Source: Octopus sinensis (lineage: Eukaryota). From it: a stretch of 64,000 bases of DNA. The DNA lies in NCBI RefSeq assembly GCF_006345805.1, contig NC_043002.1, forward strand, positions 47,306,001-47,370,000, given 5' to 3'. A model generated the notes under the pieces. That model worked only from the letters and a program-made list of their open reading frames with translations, ran no database searches and was not told where the DNA came from. Made by a program: the position numbers and the translations under genes. Each line of letters begins with the position of its first letter. Position 1 is the first letter of the stretch. This document shows positions 17,194 to 60,736 of the stretch, in pieces.

Positions 17194-17602
17194 GATTCAC
17201 TTGAATTACTTAAACTGAGGCACCAAGTCAGTCCAGTATGGTCCATACAGCTCGAAGTTAGGTGAATAAAAAGCAAATACGTAACAAGGATGTCAAGTTA
17301 TCAGTGCATTACGGCCGTTTCAAGTGGGTCCATTTAATTGATCAATGAAAACATTACATCAATTTGAAATAAATTGTTTGCCTCGGAAGCATACGATCAT
17401 ACAGATTTCCAACATACAGGATACACCATTATAATTTGCCAAAAAATTAAAATGATGTATCCTGTATGTTGGAAATCTATATGGTCGTATGCTTCCGAGG
17501 TGAACGGTTTATTTCAAAATTGATGTAATGTTTTCATTGATCGATTAAATGGAGCCACTTGAAACAGCCGTAATGCACTTGCACCTGGAATCCTTGTTAC
17601 TT
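17190..17602. mobile_element. PLE-type fold-back insert in (TA)n with degenerate hammerheads in both arms
   Basis: Imperfect inverted arms ~17279-17437 / 17444-17600. Both arms read outward as TGCTT-CCGAGG..long hairpin..CACTT-GAAAC(G/A)GCC-GTA-ATGCA. Confidence 0.65.
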
Positions 17603-22301: not shown

Positions 22302-22348
<47 letters not shown>

Positions 22349-22564
22349 TATATATATATACATATATACAAAATAAGAAAATGGAGAAATACATCTAAAT
22401 CAATTATCAACTACCAGATAATACCCAATCACATACTTTATTAAACCACTACATATGAACATTAAGGTCAAACATAATAATATAGAACAAAACAGTGTAC
22501 ATGAAGGAGTAATATGATACAATAAGTACAATATGTATAAGAGAATATAAATATAAATATAAAC

Positions 22565-22695
22565 TAATCTTACAGCTGTTTCGGCCATGTAGATATGGGT
22601 GTCTCATTTTACTTATATTAGCCATGTGTGATAGGTCAATATGTAGTTATAAATGAGACATTTACAAAAATATCCCAAGGCCTCTTCGGAGATTA
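22565..22695 (-). ncRNA. Type I hammerhead ribozyme, CCGAAGA core, ~100-nt stem II
   Basis: Minus strand: TAATCT-CCGAAGA-GGCC..GATAT..TGTCTCATTT..AAATGAGACA..ATATC..GGCC-GAAA-CAGCTG-TA^AGATTA. 6-bp stem I, palindromic stem III ACAGCTGT. Confidence 0.8.
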
Positions 22696-22803
22696 TGAAA
22701 TACAGACCAAATTAAATATACACCCATATAAGTGGGGTACATACCCATAATATATCATATATACATACATATGAGTGCATATACTCCTATATATATATCT
22801 ATA

Positions 22804-22874
<71 letters not shown>

Positions 22875-23773
22875 CATAATAATATAAATAATATAAATCA
22901 ATAAACATACATATGTTCCATATTCAATGTTACAGTTTTCAACTTAATATTATGATATTACAATGTAGAAAACATACACATATTAATACTCAAATGCAGA
23001 TATACATAGTCAAGAGTACATTATATTAATTTATATTAATTTAGAAAATGTCATTAATGTTAACATCATTACTATTATCATTACCACTAATGCTACCAAT
23101 ATCATTATTCTTATTATTAGTAACACTAATACTAGCAAAACAATATAAAGATCACATTATTAGCAACATAATAGCAAAACCAAGAACAACAATAGTACTA
23201 CAGTACCATGCAAAGCATTAAATATCTACATATACATACAAAATGAGAAATAAAAGCATTTTGTTTACATGATATTAAGTTCCACAGGTGTATAGATGTA
23301 TATACGAGTGCAATTTATAATTTCAACTGTGACACAAAAACAGAATTACGTTCAGAAATAGTTAAGAATCGAACGCTAAAATATGATTGGCTTGTACATT
23401 TAAATTTAAATTACAATTGTCTTCTTTACGGTTGGTTTGTTAAGCAACATCCACACACGCACACTTGCAAACGTGCACCCACACGCACATACATAGACAA
23501 ATCACAACATAAGAGATACCAGCCCCCCACACACACATGCTTACATACAAATCTACTCACATACAACCATAAAAATGCATACATGCAAGCACACAGACAT
23601 CTATACCCAGTCGATGTACGTTATTATCATAAAATACATAATTAAAATAACACCCTATATTTCGTAAACAAATTATCGTGCCACTGAAACTTCTATATCA
23701 TTACAATTTCGACTGTTTCTATTCAAATTTTCACTAATAAACCAGCACAGGCATGGGAAAACTATACCAACAT

Positions 23774-23821
<48 letters not shown>

Positions 23822-24109
23822 ACACACACAGAGGCGGGGATAAATAAACATTTGTACATAAAAGTATTTAATGAATATTTTGCATAATTTAATCATTATA
23901 TTTTTAAAAGAATTTCAACATTATCGATTCTTCAGTGCCTTAATCTTAAATGTTAATATTACAAAAACCTCACAGTTCACTGAGGGTTAAATAAGAATGT
24001 AAGTACATTCTTTTTATGATATTGATATACATCTATGAAACTTTGAAATGATTAAATTTATTTCAGTTCTTCTGATTTATGCTTTGTTGTATATAAAGTA
24101 GATAATATA

Positions 24110-27050: not shown

Positions 27051-27581
27051 AGGAGGTGTCCTCCTGGGGCTACAAACTACATTAGCATCCACCCTTAGGG
27101 GTTAGCCATATTTAAATGGCAAATATACGTCACGATGTGTTGCAGCTACTGTTTATAACTCGCTCTAAGATTTATTATTGCTTGTTTACACTTTTTCGAT
27201 ATCAGTGTCTTTACGATACTGGAAAAAGTATATGTATTTGTGAAGGGAACCTACTTTTCATGGACAACTGTGATTGTCACACGCCGATGACGGGTCAATA
27301 CTCAGAAACTCGAGTCTGTGTGTATCATAAGTTGGAGACGGGAAGGATGGCTTCCCTTTGCAAATACTGATAGGGCACAGAAAGTGTGTCTATAGCCAGC
27401 TGGAGGAGGTGTCCTCCTGGGGCTACAAACTACAGTAGCATCCACCCTTAGTGGTTAGCCATATTTAAATGGCAAATATACGTTACGATGTGTTGCAGCT
27501 ACTGTTTATAACTCGCTCTAAGATTTATTATTGAGTAAAAAGCTATCCACTTATAAGTATCAAAGGTCCAGAACTCTTACA
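27051..27581 (+). repeat. 130-bp direct repeat (27051-27180, 27404-27533); second copy looks like a short LTR (TG 27410 ... CA 27581) behind a purine tract
   Basis: Near-identical copies with period 353. ggaggagg lies directly before TG, and agtaaa is at 27534. Confidence 0.55.
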
Positions 27582-27992: not shown

Positions 27993-29124
<1,132 letters not shown>

Positions 29125-29154
29125 CATATATATGTATATATATATATATATGTA

Positions 29155-29256
<102 letters not shown>

Positions 29257-31530: not shown

Positions 31531-32135
31531 TCACGTTGAAAGGTGGGGCTTCCTTTCTTTTAGTTCCCAGACATATTTTGCTAGGCTGGTTTTCTTTCTA
31601 TTCTCTGGGTATTTAAAAGAATTCTTATGAGAATAAAATCTTGTTTTAAATGAATTTTCTGAAGCCCCTGTGTATGTCTTGTATTCTGATGAGCCTTCCA
31701 CTTGCACCTTGGCTCTATAAACTACTCCTTTCACTAGACATTTCCCTTCTAACGGACAGGAGCTTTCGTTTTTGCAATTACATTTCTTAATGGGCTCGGC
31801 ACCATGTCTAATCTCAATTAGCTTCCTATTATGTTGGCTAATGTAAGAGGCGAAATTTCTGCAACAAGAATAGCTAACCTTCAGGGTTCTTCTATTAAAT
31901 ATTCTGTAGAATTTATGACCCTGCCTAAAATGCTTAGAGACTAATCTCAAAAATTCCTTACCTATATTAGTCTTTACGGCCAAATTGAAAGCCGGGTTGA
32001 ACCACAAAACTTTCCTAGTCCTAGTTCTTCGTGCAGCATTATTATTAGCATTAAGCTGGTTGAACTGGATCTTCTCCGAGAATCCACTATTCTTTAATGC
32101 GCTATCGTAATAAGGTGCAGCATTATGGAATGCTG
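31531..32135 (-). pseudogene. PLE RT-thumb/linker plus GIY-YIG endonuclease fragment (arm 1)
   Basis: WFNPAF, CNCKNESSC linker, and GVVY..YTG..FKTRF..H (GIY-YIG). Confidence 0.85.
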
Positions 32136-32136
32136 G

Positions 32137-32939
32137 CAGCATTCCATAATGCTGCACCTTATTACGATAGCGCATTAAAGAATAGTGGATTCTCGGAGAA
32201 GATCCAGTTCAACCAGCTTAATGCTAATAATAATGCTGCACGAAGAACTAGGACTAGGAAAGTTTTGTGGTTCAACCCGGCTTTCAATTTGGCCGTAAAG
32301 ACTAATATAGGTAAGGAATTTTTGAGATTAGTCTCTAAGCATTTTAGGCAGGTCATAAATTCTACAGAATATTTAATAGAAGAACCCTGAAGGTTAGCTA
32401 TTCTTGTTGCAGAAATTTCGCCTCTTACATTAGCCACATAATAGGAAGCTAATTGAGATTAGACATGGTGCCGAGCCCATTAAGAAATGTAATTGCAAAA
32501 ACGAAAGCTCCTGTCCGTTAGAAGGGAAATGTCTAGTGAAAGGAGTAGTTTATAGAGCCAAGGTGCAAGTGGAAGGCTCATCAGAATACAAGACATACAC
32601 AGGGGCTTCAGAAAATTCATTTAAAACAAGATTTTATTCTCATAAGAATTCTTTTAAATACCCAGAGAATAGAAAGAAAACCAGCCTAGCAAAATATGTC
32701 TGGGAACTAAAAGAAAAGGAAGCCCCACCTTTCAACGTGACATGGAGCATTCTGGACAGGGCGGCACCATACAGGCATGGAGCTTACAAATATAATTTCA
32801 AGTGCAAGCTTTGCTTATTAGAAAAATGCATATATTATTCAAAGACAATAATTCTTTGAATCAAAGAAGTGAATTAATGAACTTATGTAGGCACAAGGCT
32901 AAATTTAAAATGTCGAATATAAATATACCATATGGATAG
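32137..32939 (+). pseudogene. PLE GIY-YIG endonuclease fragment (arm 2, single-base indels)
   Basis: Same protein as arm 1, split across ORFs 32097 and 32536. C-terminal CKLC..LNQRSEL..CRHK. Confidence 0.85.
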
Positions 32940-33949
32940 AGTATATATTTTGTATTTTGATTTTTGATTTTGATTTTGACTCTTGAGCGCTGCAACGGAC
33001 CTATAGCAAAGTCTTATTGTTTCTACATATATATTAGGAAAAACCTACAAACTTTGTTTTCATGTTATTGTATTGCATAAGATTACCTTGATTATTTATA
33101 TTACCTTGATTATTTATAAATGACCCAAAATAGGATGTTATATTTTATTTTATAGGTCTTTCGTATATATTTTTATTAATGCACCGAATTTTTAAAAGCA
33201 AGTTTTTTTATATAAAAAAAGCAATGTTGTCAAATTTAGAATGTTTATATAAGTTTGTGTATAGCAAAGCATATGTATTTGTAAGCATACGTATCTGTGT
33301 ATGTGTAAGTGAAAGTATGCTTGTGCTTAAGCACGCATACACACGACGGTATGTATATGTATCGATTCAAACTTGTGTATGTATACTGGCCTCTATAGAT
33401 GCCAAATAACATCGCTACAAATTTTTTTCCCCACCCCTCCTTCGTTCCTTTTTCTCTCTTTCCCTTTCTTTCGTTCCCCCTCCTTGCTCAGTATATGAGA
33501 ATTGCTACATAGATGAATTTTAGCTTGCGTGCGAGACGTTTTGCGTGAATATATGTACACATGCTTTTATGTGTATAATTTAGATTCATATTCATACGTC
33601 TGTATATGTATGTATGGCGTTTACGCGCATCCTTTTGTGTATGTTGATATATATATGTGGATTTTAATATAAATATGTATTGCAGTATTTATAACAGGTT
33701 TAATTTCTATGCATTAATTTGTACTGTCTTCATTAACGGCAACAGGTTTTTTCCTCGGTATTTTCCTCGGATTTTATAATTTTTATAAGTTTTTATTATA
33801 TATATATATATATATGTTTATTATATATATATATATATATATATAGACGGAGTAAACACATAATGTGAAACAAGGTGGAAAAAAGAGTACTCAAATACCA
33901 GTGGTAGAGTAATATGCTTTATTTTAAGCAGCAGAAAATTCAACAAAAT

Positions 33950-33987
33950 CTGTTACTCTGAGTTTCTCGTTGCCGTTCATCAGACAG
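33950..33987 (-). ncRNA. Minimal hammerhead ribozyme in PLE pLTR (copy 2)
   Basis: Identical motif to 30271-30308. Confidence 0.75.
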
Positions 33988-35197
33988 TTCTTGCTAGAAT
34001 GGAACATATATATTAATTCAATCTATACTCTTACAAACGCTACACCTTTAAAAAGAAATGGACTTGTTTGATTGGCCCTTTAGAAAAAACGGTCAATCTT
34101 CGAGCGATAAACAAAAAGGTCAAAAATATATGTATATATATATAAAAACTTATAAAAATTATAAAATCCGAGGAAAATACCGAGGAAAAAACCTGTTGCC
34201 GTTAATGAAGACAGTACAATTAATGCATAGAAATTAAACCTGTTATAAATACTGCAATACATATTTATATTAAAATCCACATATATATATCAACATACAC
34301 AAAAGGATGCGCGTAAACGCCATACATACATATACAGACGTATGAATATGAATCTAAATTATACACATAAAAGCATGTGTACATATATTCACGCAAAACG
34401 TCTCGCACGCAAGCTAAAATTCATCTATGTAGCAATTCTCATATACTGAGCAAGGAGGGGGAACGAAAGAAAGGGAAAGAGAGAAAAAGGAACGAAGGAG
34501 GGGTGGGGAAAAAAATTTGTAGCGATGTTATTTGGCATCTATAGAGGCCAGTATACATACACAAGTTTGAATCGATACATATACATACCGTCGTGTGTAT
34601 GCGTGCTTAAGCACAAGCATACTTTCACTTACACATACACAGATACGTATGCTTACAAATACATATGCTTTGCTATACACAAACTTATATAAACATTCTA
34701 AATTTGACAACATTGCTTTTTTTATATAAAAAAACATTGCTTTTAAAATTCGGTGCATTAATAAAAATATATACGAAAGACCTATAAAATAAAATATAAC
34801 ATCCTATTTTGGGTCATTTATAAATAATCAAGGTAATATAAATAATCAAGGTAATCTTATGCAATACAATAACATGAAAACAAAGTTTGTAGGTTTTTCC
34901 TAATATATATGTAGAAACAATAAGACTTTGCTATAGGTCCGTTGCAGCGCTCAAGAGTCAAAATCAAAATCAAAAAATCAAAATACAAAATATATACTCT
35001 ATCCATATGGTATATTTATATTCGACATTTTAAATTTAGCCTTGTGCCTACATAAGTTCATTAATTCACTTCTTTGATTCAAAGAATATTGTCTTTGAAT
35101 AATATATGCATTTTTTCTAATAAGCAAAGCTTGCACTTGAAATTATATTTGTAAGCTCCATGCCTGTATGGTGCCGCCCTGTCCAGAATGCTCCATG

Positions 35198-35802
35198 TCA
35201 CGTTGAAAGGTGGGGCTTCCTTTCTTTTAGTTCCCAGACATATTTTGCTAGGCTGGTTTTCTTTCTATTCTCTGGGTATTTAAAAGAATTCTTATGAGAA
35301 TAAAATCTTGTTTTAAATGAATTTTCTGAAGCCCCTGTGTATGTCTTGTATTCTGATGAGCCTTCCACTTGCACCTTGGCTCTATAAACTACTCCTTTCA
35401 CTAGACATTTCCCTTCTAACGGACAGGAGCTTTCGTTTTTGCAATTACATTTCTTAATGGGCTCGGCACCATGTCTAATCTCAATTAGCTTCCTATTATG
35501 TTGGCTAATGTAAGAGGCGAAATTTCTGCAACAAGAATAGCTAACCTTCAGGGTTCTTCTATTAAATATTCTGTAGAATTTATGACCCTGCCTAAAATGC
35601 TTAGAGACTAATCTCAAAAATTCCTTACCTATATTAGTCTTTACGGCCAAATTGAAAGCCGGGTTGAACCACAAAACTTTCCTAGTCCTAGTTCTTCGTG
35701 CAGCATTATTATTAGCATTAAGCTGGTTGAACTGGATCTTCTCCGAGAATCCACTATTCTTTAATGCGCTATCGTAATAAGGTGCAGCATTATGGAATGC
35801 TG
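35198..35802 (-). pseudogene. PLE GIY-YIG fragment (arm 3)
   Basis: ORF translation identical to arm 1. Confidence 0.85.
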
Positions 35803-35803
35803 G

Positions 35804-36609
35804 CAGCATTCCATAATGCTGCACCTTATTACGATAGCGCAATTAAAGAATAGTGGATTCTCGGAGAAGATCCAGTTCAACCAGCTTAATGCTAATAATA
35901 ATGCTGCACGAAGAACTAGGACTAGGAAAGTTTTGTGGTTCAACCCGGCTTTCAATTTGGCCGTAAAGACTAATATAGGTAAGGAATTTTTGAGATTAGT
36001 CTCTAAGCATTTTAGGCAGGGTCATAAATTCTACAGAATATTTAATAGAAGAACCCTGAAGGTTAGCTATTCTTGTTGCAGAAATTTCGCCTCTTACATT
36101 AGCCAACATAATAGGAAGCTAATTGAGATTAGACATGGTGCCGAGCCCATTAAGAAATGTAATTGCAAAAACGAAAGCTCCTGTCCGTTAGAAGGGAAAT
36201 GTCTAGTGAAAGGAGTAGTTTATAGAGCCAAGGTGCAAGTGGAAGGCTCATCAGAATACAAGACATACACAGGGGCTTCAGAAAATTCATTTAAAACAAG
36301 ATTTTATTCTCATAAGAATTCTTTTAAATACCCAGAGAATAGAAAGAAAACCAGCCTAGCAAAATATGTCTGGGAACTAAAAGAAAAGGAAGCCCCACCT
36401 TTCAACGTGACATGGAGCATTCTGGACAGGGCGGCACCATACAGGCATGGAGCTTACAAATATAATTTCAAGTGCAAGCTTTGCTTATTAGAAAAATGCA
36501 TATATTATTCAAAGACAATAATTCTTTGAATCAAAGAAGTGAATTAATGAACTTATGTAGGCACAAGGCTAAATTTAAAATGTCGAATATAAATATACCA
36601 TATGGATAG
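35804..36609 (+). pseudogene. PLE GIY-YIG fragment (arm 4)
   Basis: ORF 35792-36529 with WFNPAF, CNC-X5-C, GVVY..YTG and CKLC. The C-terminus continues in another frame. Confidence 0.85.
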
Positions 36610-40724: not shown

Positions 40725-40810
40725 TATTAGAGACAAAACCACTATTTGCAAAACAAACAAGGAAAGACTTAATCAATACATAAAATTTTAATAAATAGTC
40801 AAAAAAACCG

Positions 40811-40853
40811 CCACTACAATCGTTTCTTGTCTTGATCGACAATCTTCAGGTGG
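40811..40853 (-). ncRNA. Minimal type I hammerhead ribozyme (left arm)
   Basis: Mirror copy of 40899-40941. Confidence 0.85.
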
Positions 40854-40898
40854 ACTTCCAATAATTCAGTGTCAAATTGACACTGAATTATTGGAAGT

Positions 40899-40941
40899 CC
40901 ACCTGAAGATTGTCGATCAAGACAAGAAACGATTGTAGTGG
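40899..40941 (+). ncRNA. Minimal type I hammerhead ribozyme (right arm)
   Basis: CCAC-CTGAAGA-TTGTC[GATCAA]GACAA-GAAA-CGATTG-TA^GTGG. Canonical core, quasi-palindromic stem III. Confidence 0.85.
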
Positions 40942-41130
40942 CGGTTTTTTTTGACTATTTATTAAAATTTTATGTATTGATTAAGTCTTTCCTTGTTTGT
41001 TTTGTAAAATAGTGGTTTTGTCTCTAATAATATTTTATAATATTTTACTATAAAATCGATTTAATCCTAAATCTGATTTTTTTATCCCTGTAAATTTGGA
41101 TTTATTCCCTAATATTTATTATATATATAT

Positions 41131-60657: not shown

Positions 60658-60736
60658 TGTTTTACATCTGTTTTTAGAATAACCAGGCATGTGGATCATA
60701 GTATTGAATAAAGATTGTATTCCGTCATCGGAGACA
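60658..60736 (-). ncRNA. Degenerate long-stem-II hammerhead with CCGATGA core
   Basis: Minus strand: TGTCT-CCGATGA-cGGAATA...TATTCT-aaaaa-CAGATG-TA-AAACA. GAAA and stems I/III are mutated. Confidence 0.4.

What the first reader, a model, noticed from the sequence alone, without database searches (positions are those of the whole stretch)
22565..22695. Hammerhead with non-canonical CCGANGA core (U4->C) and ~100-nt stem II
Seen: perfect 6-bp stem I (TAATCT/AGATTA), GGCC/GGCC base of stem II extended into a long interrupted hairpin, stem III ACAGCTGT and a GUA site, but the core is CCGAAGA. The same C4 recurs in unrelated inserts at 28395 (CCGACGA), 60658 (CCGATGA) and 17490 (CCGAGG), always with a long stem II. 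Established: U4 is a highly conserved core position. Inference: recurrence in independent families with intact stems suggests a genuine variant class rather than decay. Standard CUGANGA searches with short-stem limits would miss it, and it may be undescribed.
Basis: partly seen in the sequence, partly recalled or inferred. Interest (0 to 1): 0.9.

Follow-up and report, generated by a model that had tools for sequence, protein, structure and literature searches.

The report
Transposon hammerhead with recurrent C4 core
This is a hammerhead-shaped RNA motif at the end of a Penelope-like jumping gene, in which a supposedly fixed core letter (U4) was swapped to C in hundreds of copies and in several unrelated repeat families, so it is likely a tolerated, slower self-cutting variant that standard searches would miss.

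Summary
The motif is real (minus strand): type I hammerhead with CCGAAGA core, 100-nt stem II, palindromic stem III and GUA site. It lies in the 3' UTR of a 5'-truncated Penelope-like element with Hydra-clade hallmarks. In this lineage 489 exact copies carry C4 and 966 carry U4. The endonuclease tree reads U4, then C4 across seven subfamilies, then U4 again in the youngest, intact elements. During the C4 phase the endonuclease stayed under purifying selection (dN/dS 0.17) and no other core base changed between subfamilies. C4 also marks subfamilies of three other repeat families, two with short stem II. The perfect 6-bp stem I is private to this copy; C4 at 28395 is private (2 of 40 places); 17490 is not an intact hammerhead; C4 is not tied to a long stem II. 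U4C is already known from one viroid variant with lowered activity. Its repeated fixation in transposon lineages was not found in the papers searched, but the most relevant survey was not available. Cleavage is untested. Verdict: new variant of a known kind.

The parts
22690..22695 (-). Stem I, 5' strand (TAATCT)
   Evidence: Sequence; the family pairs 4 bp, and a further 2 bp beyond an unpaired base are possible
22683..22689 (-). Hammerhead core C3-C4-G5-A6-A7-G8-A9; C4 at 22688
   Evidence: C4 in 31 of 32 aligned nearest copies
22583..22682 (-). Stem II: 100-nt interrupted hairpin with GGCC/GGCC base
   Evidence: z -3.47; 10 of 25 pairs with changes on both sides across 23 lineage and sister sequences
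22579..22582 (-). G12-A13-A14-A15.1
   Evidence: Sequence; unchanged between subfamilies
22572..22579 (-). Palindromic stem III ACAGCTGT (predicted dimer interface)
   Evidence: No fold alone (0.0), 8-bp duplex of two copies -11.1 kcal/mol
22570..22573 (-). GUA triplet; predicted cleavage between 22571 and 22570
   Evidence: Inferred from the hammerhead consensus; not observed
22565..22570 (-). Stem I, 3' strand (AGATTA; private 1-nt deletion)
22366..23822 (-). 5'-truncated 3' UTR fragment of a Penelope-like element with Hydra-clade hallmarks (lineage A, subfamily S1)
   Evidence: 89.8% over 1552 nt to L137, which carries the endonuclease about 1 kb further upstream; shared 3' end and ragged 5' ends
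22304..22365 (.). (TA)n-rich tract at the element's 3' end
   Evidence: Sequence; (TA)n targeting is reported for Hydra elements
27278..27322 (+).
   Evidence: 11 of 14 listed copies of its subfamily are C4 (hand count); tree
28394..28477 (-). Hammerhead of a young 534-bp tandem repeat (retrozyme-like); C4 private, family U4; 51-nt stem II
60658..60736 (-). Decayed hammerhead of family B (C4, G12 lost)
17340..17540 (.). Long inverted repeat; CCGAGG without A9; not an intact hammerhead

Best explanation
The motif is a type I hammerhead in the terminal repeat (3' UTR) of a Penelope-like retrotransposon, and its C4 core is likely a tolerated, slower but still self-cleaving variant that the element's master copies carried for a long stretch of their history. 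Shown: anatomy, host element, U4 -> C4 -> U4 order on the rooted tree, purifying selection on the endonuclease and an unchanged remaining core during the C4 phase, and C4 subfamilies in three other families. Inferred: in a tandem element (hammerheads 5602 nt apart in L213) two motifs on one transcript pair through the palindromic stem III, form the double hammerhead and cut after GUA/GUC, probably helped by the element's own protein, to give unit-length RNA. Inferred: U4C lowers the rate, but these already slow ribozymes tolerate a pyrimidine at position 4; the return to U4 suggests C4 is mildly deleterious. The long stem II is a separate lineage trait under structural selection, likely a protein-binding or folding handle. 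The window copy is a lone truncated relic and probably does not cut in vivo.
For: Host element: intact 960-aa ORF in L213 with RT-like motifs (read by eye) and Hydra hallmarks; direct terminal repeat with hammerheads at 871 and 6473. Counts: 489 C4 and 966 U4 exact matches, 0 in reversed controls. The U4 copies are not CpG decay: 59 U4 among 100 listed of 133 matches, against 2 CCAA matches genome-wide. Rooted endonuclease tree of 35 rows: old U4, then C4 (99/94), then U4; a single C4 clade is rejected, p-AU 1.2e-5; the 157-copy 3'-end tree agrees. dN/dS 0.17 for S1-S6 (dS 0.38) and S1-S3 (dS 0.21). 0 of 24 core, stem III and stem II-base columns differ among 7 C4 subfamilies against 53 of 174 flank columns, p 3e-4; core alone 0 of 10, p 0.03. 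Core-blind sample of 70 copies: 64 from C4-stage subfamilies, 57 with the core present, 51 CG, and no other core change fixed in a subfamily. Position 17 changed only A -> C, an allowed cleavage triplet. Of 181 motifs in the loci held, 92 U4, 88 C4, 1 A4, 0 G4 (the loci were largely chosen on these families). Family D, found as a bystander and core-blind: 10 CCG, 5 CTG, 1 CCA, 1 ACG of 17. Literature passages: U4C lowers activity in vitro yet permits viroid infectivity (PMC3088659); PLE hammerheads cleave weakly and as dimers (PMC4209133); a Poseidon hammerhead is protein-assisted (PMC11167929).
Against: No cleavage was measured or seen. In a pairwise mutational scan all CUGA single and double mutants except the C3G/G8C swap had low activity (PMC9901934). 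Hammerhead catalytic mutants did not affect insertion in vitro for a Poseidon element, and no reads ended at its cleavage site (PMC11167929), so conservation may not reflect cutting. Within the C4 phase none of 33 stem II pairs shows a both-side compensatory change (23 same, 4 one-side kept, 6 broken in some); the compensations come from the wider lineage. The copies were mostly chosen by patterns that contain the core. The longest open frame among the C4 copies checked is 501 aa, partly microsatellite, so no intact C4 element was seen. In families B and C, C and T copies are mixed and polarity is unresolved. In the window copy with flanks, the predicted fold traps the core in a local hairpin. 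Pfam and PDB sequence searches did not name the ORF.
Confidence: 0.62

Rival explanations
1. C4 motifs do not cut at a useful rate; the fold is kept for a non-catalytic job such as binding the element's protein or positioning reverse transcription, and cleavage is dispensable.
For: Cleavage was not needed for insertion in vitro in a Poseidon element (PMC11167929). CUGA mutants have low activity (PMC9901934). The long stem II is conserved whatever position 4 is. The abundant S3 side branch amplified with C4.
Against: C3, G5, G8, G12, A13, A14 and an allowed NUH site stayed fixed over a synonymous distance of about 0.6, where about 6 changes at 10 neutral sites are expected. The trunk returned to exactly U4. 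No A4 or G4 family was seen.
Confidence: 0.22
2. C4 masters were poor ribozymes rescued in trans: U4 transcripts with the same palindrome pair with C4 transcripts and cut their site.
For: U4 and C4 subfamilies share stem III ACAGCTGT and stem I, and old U4 copies were already in the genome. Intermolecular pairing is favourable.
Against: It does not explain why the C4 copies kept their own catalytic G8 and G12. Two hammerheads on one tandem transcript should outcompete partners in trans (inference).
Confidence: 0.08
3. C4 is neutral decay or hitch-hiking in dead or passively copied repeats.
For: True for the 28395 copy (2 of 40 places) and for 17490. U-to-C is a common transition.
Against: Fixed in 7 subfamilies with the endonuclease under purifying selection; 51 of 57 core-blind copies are CG; flanks diverged while the core did not.
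Confidence: 0.05

Closest known systems
Type I hammerheads of Penelope-like elements (Cervera and de la Pena 2014, PMC4209133)
   Same: Type I topology, short stem I, palindromic stem III, place in the terminal repeat, inverted and tandem copies, predicted dimer action.
   Different: Their consensus is CUGANGAH and the core variant they describe is U3-A8; helix II there is 7-8 bp. Here position 4 is C in a third of lineage copies and stem II is 84-106 nt.
Hydra-clade PLE hammerheads (Craig et al. 2021, PMC8557442, File S2)
   Same: Host element has DKT, CxCX5C, CxxC/CxH and (TA)n targets; hammerhead near the 3' end.
   Different: All 26 Hydra rows of File S2 begin ctga with loop 2 of 3-10 nt. 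Their elements are mostly under 3 kb; this unit is 5.6 kb with a 960-aa ORF, a 3' UTR of over 2 kb, and RWR for RWK.
Natural U4C viroid hammerhead variant (Ambros and Flores 1998, seen only as cited in PMC3088659)
   Same: Same substitution; reported to lower activity in vitro yet allow infectivity.
   Different: One variant of a viroid, against hundreds of genomic copies, long-term fixation, a reversion and recurrence in several families here.
Non-LTR retrozymes (PMC7229834; bioRxiv 10.64898/2026.07.22.740005)
   Same: The 534-bp tandem family at 28.1-29.2 kb and the 353-bp tandem family of lineage C fit this class by size, tandem layout and type I hammerhead.
   Different: The 22689 motif belongs to a protein-coding element, not to a short tandem repeat.

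Membership tests
Hammerhead ribozyme, type I | Three helices around the core, open at stem I | tested here: met
   91.8% of cells paired, 0 of 500 shuffles as high; slid controls 24-43%
Hammerhead ribozyme, type I | Core C3, G5, A6, G8, A9, G12, A13, A14, A15.1-U16.1 and H17 | tested here: met
   All present in this copy and unchanged between subfamilies except A17 -> C17
Hammerhead ribozyme, type I | U at position 4 | tested here: not met
   C4 at 22688; 489 C4 vs 966 U4 lineage copies. A natural U4C exception is in print
Hammerhead ribozyme, type I | Site-specific self-cleavage | not testable with these tools
   Only assembled contigs were offered
Hammerhead ribozyme, type I | Loop 1-loop 2 tertiary contact of canonical fast hammerheads | not tested
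   No short loop 2 next to the core; not modelled
Hammerhead ribozyme, type I | Match to an Rfam hammerhead model | tested here: not met
   None among the 150 listed of 187 matches at E <= 10; 37 weaker ones not shown
Dimer-type PLE hammerhead | Short palindromic stem III and place in the PLE terminal repeat | tested here: met
Penelope-like element | Single ORF with RT and C-terminal GIY-YIG endonuclease | tested here: inconclusive
   960-aa ORF with YRDD and VVY..VYIG motifs read by eye against recalled motifs; Pfam gave only one weak unrelated hit and PDB none
Penelope-like element | Pseudo-LTR tandem, 5' truncation, inverted 5' copies | tested here: met
Hydra clade of PLEs | DKT, CxCX5C linker, CxxC and CxH around E and N, (TA)n targets | tested here: met
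   SDKT, CNCRNKNKC, CSLC..E..N..CIH in L213 against section 11 of PMC8557442
Hydra clade of PLEs | RWK motif; length generally under 3 kb | tested here: inconclusive
   RWR; unit 5602 nt
Hydra clade of PLEs | Placement in an RT tree with reference Hydra elements | not tested
   Reference proteins were not loaded
Non-LTR retrozyme | Short non-coding tandem unit | tested here: not met
   Lineage A carries an ORF upstream; the test is met only by the 28.1-29.2 kb family

The most novel reading that the evidence does not exclude
Position 4 of dimer-type transposon hammerheads is a pyrimidine toggle: C4 ribozymes are active, were fixed independently in at least four repeat families of this genome, and tune cleavage rate. 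The working consensus would be CYGANGA with stem II of 12-100 nt, and a large hidden share of animal transposon ribozymes would be missed by CUGANGA descriptors.
Probability: 0.35. Interest if true: 0.78.

Novelty: new variant of a known kind. Interest (0 to 1): 0.58.

Why it matters
The role of hammerheads in Penelope-like elements is an open question (PMC8557442, PMC11167929). This lineage gives a natural experiment: one master line went U4 -> C4 -> U4 while still encoding a selected protein, and left real copies of every stage. Comparing them tests directly how much cleavage transposition needs and what U4 contributes in a dimeric, possibly protein-assisted ribozyme. In practice, a third of this lineage's motifs (489 of 1455 exact matches) fail a CUGANGA filter and all exceed short stem II limits, so genome censuses of these ribozymes are likely undercounts.

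Tried and rejected
Intron idea: a GTAAGT donor-like word in stem II of this and the 28395 motif is not conserved along the lineage (GTAAAT, GTTAAT); rejected. CpG decay as the source of lineage A U4 copies: rejected. C4 coupled to long stem II: rejected. Neptune clade was my first guess; the linker is CxCX5C, which fits Hydra. Rfam: no hammerhead listed. Pfam and PDB: nothing useful. Expression: no RNA holder listed on record; the four runs laid were contigs and cannot show ends, so there is no evidence on cleavage either way. In those contigs both states occur at 22688 (U4 share by depth 4321/10303 in X16, 1317/5256 in X18, 170/555 in X2, 58/65 in X13). The first 65-row tree included non-homologous flanks and was redone on the endonuclease alone with 35 rows; most rows without a hammerhead in range, some near-duplicates and long-branch rows were left out. 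The 17 endonuclease loci without a hammerhead call were checked: 14 gave no match to the hammerhead region in the fetched range, L205 has one that the script missed, L196 an inverted one, and L228 matches only the 3' flank. The structure string was off by one column and was replaced. Earlier scan findings: none. Literature searches: 'hammerhead'+'CCGANGA' 0 papers; 'hammerhead'+'U4C' 4 papers, one relevant by title; 'hammerhead'+'octopus'+'Penelope' 4 listed of 5; further searches. Lunse et al. 2017, Ambros and Flores 1998 and Scott et al. 2013 were not held, so C4 among the roughly 150,000 PLE variants of Lunse et al. (number recalled) could not be excluded.

Full report
1. The observation. 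The motif lies on the minus strand: stem I 22695-22690, core CCGAAGA 22689-22683, a 100-nt stem II 22682-22583, GAAA, palindromic stem III ACAGCTGT, GUA, and stem I 22570-22565. Stem II alone folds at -26.1 kcal/mol, z -3.47. A type I descriptor finds 3 C4 and 2 U4 motifs in the window against means of 0.03 and 0 in 30 shuffles. No hammerhead family is among the 150 Rfam matches listed of 187. The perfect stem I is private: the 31 other aligned copies have one more base.

2. The host element. The window lies in a 2.72-Gb animal genome (G000, contig C6), cephalopod-like from recall, not tested. The DNA query had 1634 candidates, 40 scored. Copies share a 3' end near 22366 followed by (TA)n and have ragged, often inverted 5' ends. 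Longer copies carry, about 2-2.5 kb upstream of the motif, the end of an ORF with a C-terminal endonuclease. The young relative L213 has a 960-aa ORF and a direct terminal repeat with hammerheads 5602 nt apart. Its DKT, CxCX5C and CxxC/CxH motifs and (TA)n targets match the Hydra clade as defined in section 11 of PMC8557442. Pfam and PDB did not name it, and no tree with reference elements was built.

3. History of position 4. Exact patterns give 489 C4 and 966 U4 copies, 0 in controls. A tighter pattern gave 133 matches; of 100 listed, 41 were C, 59 T, none A or G (hand count), and the opposite-strand CpG product gave 2. The endonuclease tree of 35 rows, rooted on three distant copies (one with a U4 motif, two without a motif in range), is a ladder: U4/GUA, then C4, then U4/GUC in the youngest copies. 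One C4 clade is rejected (p-AU 1.2e-5). With the U4 outgroups, one gain and one reversion on the trunk is the simplest reading. A 157-copy tree of the 3' region with position 4 masked shows the same order and seven C4 subfamilies, plus one sporadic C4 among old U4 copies and a few U4 copies nested among C4 ones.

4. Selection during the C4 phase. Endonuclease dN/dS is 0.17 between S1 and S6 (dS 0.38) and between S1 and S3 (dS 0.21); S6 is represented by two copies, one of them U4. Among the seven C4 subfamilies (71 copies), 0 of 10 core, 0 of 6 stem III and 0 of 8 stem II-base columns differ, against 53 of 174 flank columns (p 3e-4; core alone p 0.03); 19 of 70 stem II extension columns differ. 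Those copies were mostly chosen by core-containing patterns, so I drew a core-blind sample: the first 70 of 690 matches to an inner stem II pattern. Six were U4-stage; of 64 C4-stage copies 7 lacked the 5' part; of 57 scored, 51 were CG, 3 TG, 2 CA and 1 a truncation junction. No other core change was seen in more than 3 copies.

5. The long stem II. It is a lineage trait, 84-106 nt in all ten subfamilies, U4 and C4 alike. It also occurs in sister families among 1723 exact matches. Across 23 sequences 91.8% of cells pair and 10 of 25 pairs have both-side changes; relatedness can inflate this, but slid controls pair only 24-43%. Within the C4 phase alone there is no both-side change in 33 pairs. 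All 26 Hydra rows in File S2 of PMC8557442 have ctga cores and loops of 3-10 nt.

6. Recurrence. The 17490 motif lacks A9, and 5 related copies read CTGAAGA. The 60658 copy is decayed, but its family B (586 exact matches) shows 24 CCG, 4 CCA, 2 CTA and 70 CTG among 100 listed, with C4 mostly in the 31-nt stem II form (hand count); endonuclease remains about 30% identical to L213 lie beside 6 of 30 family B loci. Family C, at 27284 in this window, has a 14-nt stem II; 15 of 100 listed of 1730 matches are C4, including 11 of 14 in the window's subfamily (hand count). Family D, a minimal hammerhead met only as a bystander, has 10 CCG, 5 CTG, 1 CCA and 1 ACG of 17. The regions of A, B and C do not align with each other; D was not compared this way. 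In B, C and D the direction of change is not resolved.

7. Mechanism. Stem III has no stable fold alone but forms an 8-bp duplex between two copies (-11.1 kcal/mol). PLE hammerheads cleave weakly and as dimers (PMC4209133), and one is protein-assisted (PMC11167929). I infer that tandem motifs on one transcript form a double hammerhead and cut out unit-length RNA. U4C is reported to lower activity yet allow viroid infectivity (PMC3088659). The unchanged catalytic bases, the allowed NUH site, the lack of A4/G4 families (1 A4 of 181 motifs) and the reversion fit a tolerated, mildly deleterious variant (0.62). The main rival is a non-catalytic role (0.22): CUGA mutants were poorly active in a mutational scan (PMC9901934), and cleavage was dispensable for insertion in vitro. 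No data here show cleavage.

8. Novelty. The fold, the host class and U4C itself are known. Lineage-wide fixation, reversion and recurrence of C4, and 85-100-nt stems II in PLE hammerheads, were not found in my searches. Lunse et al. 2017, the most relevant survey, was not held. What I saw: PMC4209133, parts 1-3 of 4 of the text, a supplement search and part 1 of 3 of its PDF (one supplementary file not searched); PMC8557442, passages, section 11, supplement parts 1-2 of 59 and a supplement search; bioRxiv 10.64898/2026.07.22.740005, part 1 of 5; passages only of PMC3088659, PMC9901934, PMC11167929, PMC6765202, PMC6155905, PMC3907566, PMC13738344 and PMC7229834. Figures and unread supplements may show C4 variants. 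Hammerhead numbering and RT/endonuclease motif names are partly recalled.

9. Verdict. New variant of a known kind, interest 0.58.

Noticed in passing
window 27278-27322 (+): C4 hammerhead with a short stem II (family C); young relatives form 353-bp tandem repeats with U4 (L424).
   Followed up: yes
L091, L127, L180, L347, L383 and 12 more loci: Family D minimal hammerhead (core CCGACGA, 4-bp stem II, palindrome ACGT), 17 bystander copies in 1.47 Mb held, mostly C4; probably very abundant. Host element not identified.
   Followed up: partly
window 28109-29165: Young (99% identical) 534-bp tandem repeat with a 51-nt stem II hammerhead and an inverted 5' copy; retrozyme-like; 783 candidates.
   Followed up: partly
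window 40800-40960: Inverted pair of canonical U4 hammerheads (cores at 40849 minus and 40903 plus), 16-nt stem II.
   Followed up: no
window 31550-36500: Four endonuclease fragments about 38% identical to the L213 protein, in inverted and tandem layout: another Hydra-like element.
   Followed up: no
L213:1449-4331: Intact 960-aa ORF with a long Asn-rich linker and a 5.6-kb unit, much larger than the Hydra elements listed in PMC8557442; a second 960-aa frame in L212.
   Followed up: partly
lineage A subfamilies S5-S8: Cleavage triplet changed GUA -> GUC during the C4 phase, and stem II shortened from 100 to 85-88 nt and became more stable in the youngest U4 copies (to -40.7 kcal/mol).
   Followed up: partly
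families B and C: A C.A opposition at the base of stem II in many copies (extra C after A9, extra A before G12), like the PLE-X1_cBra row of File S2 in PMC8557442.
   Followed up: no
L375, L377, L393, L395, L271, L273: Further hammerhead families with 35-65-nt AT-rich stems II and U4 cores; long stems II look common in this genome.
   Followed up: no
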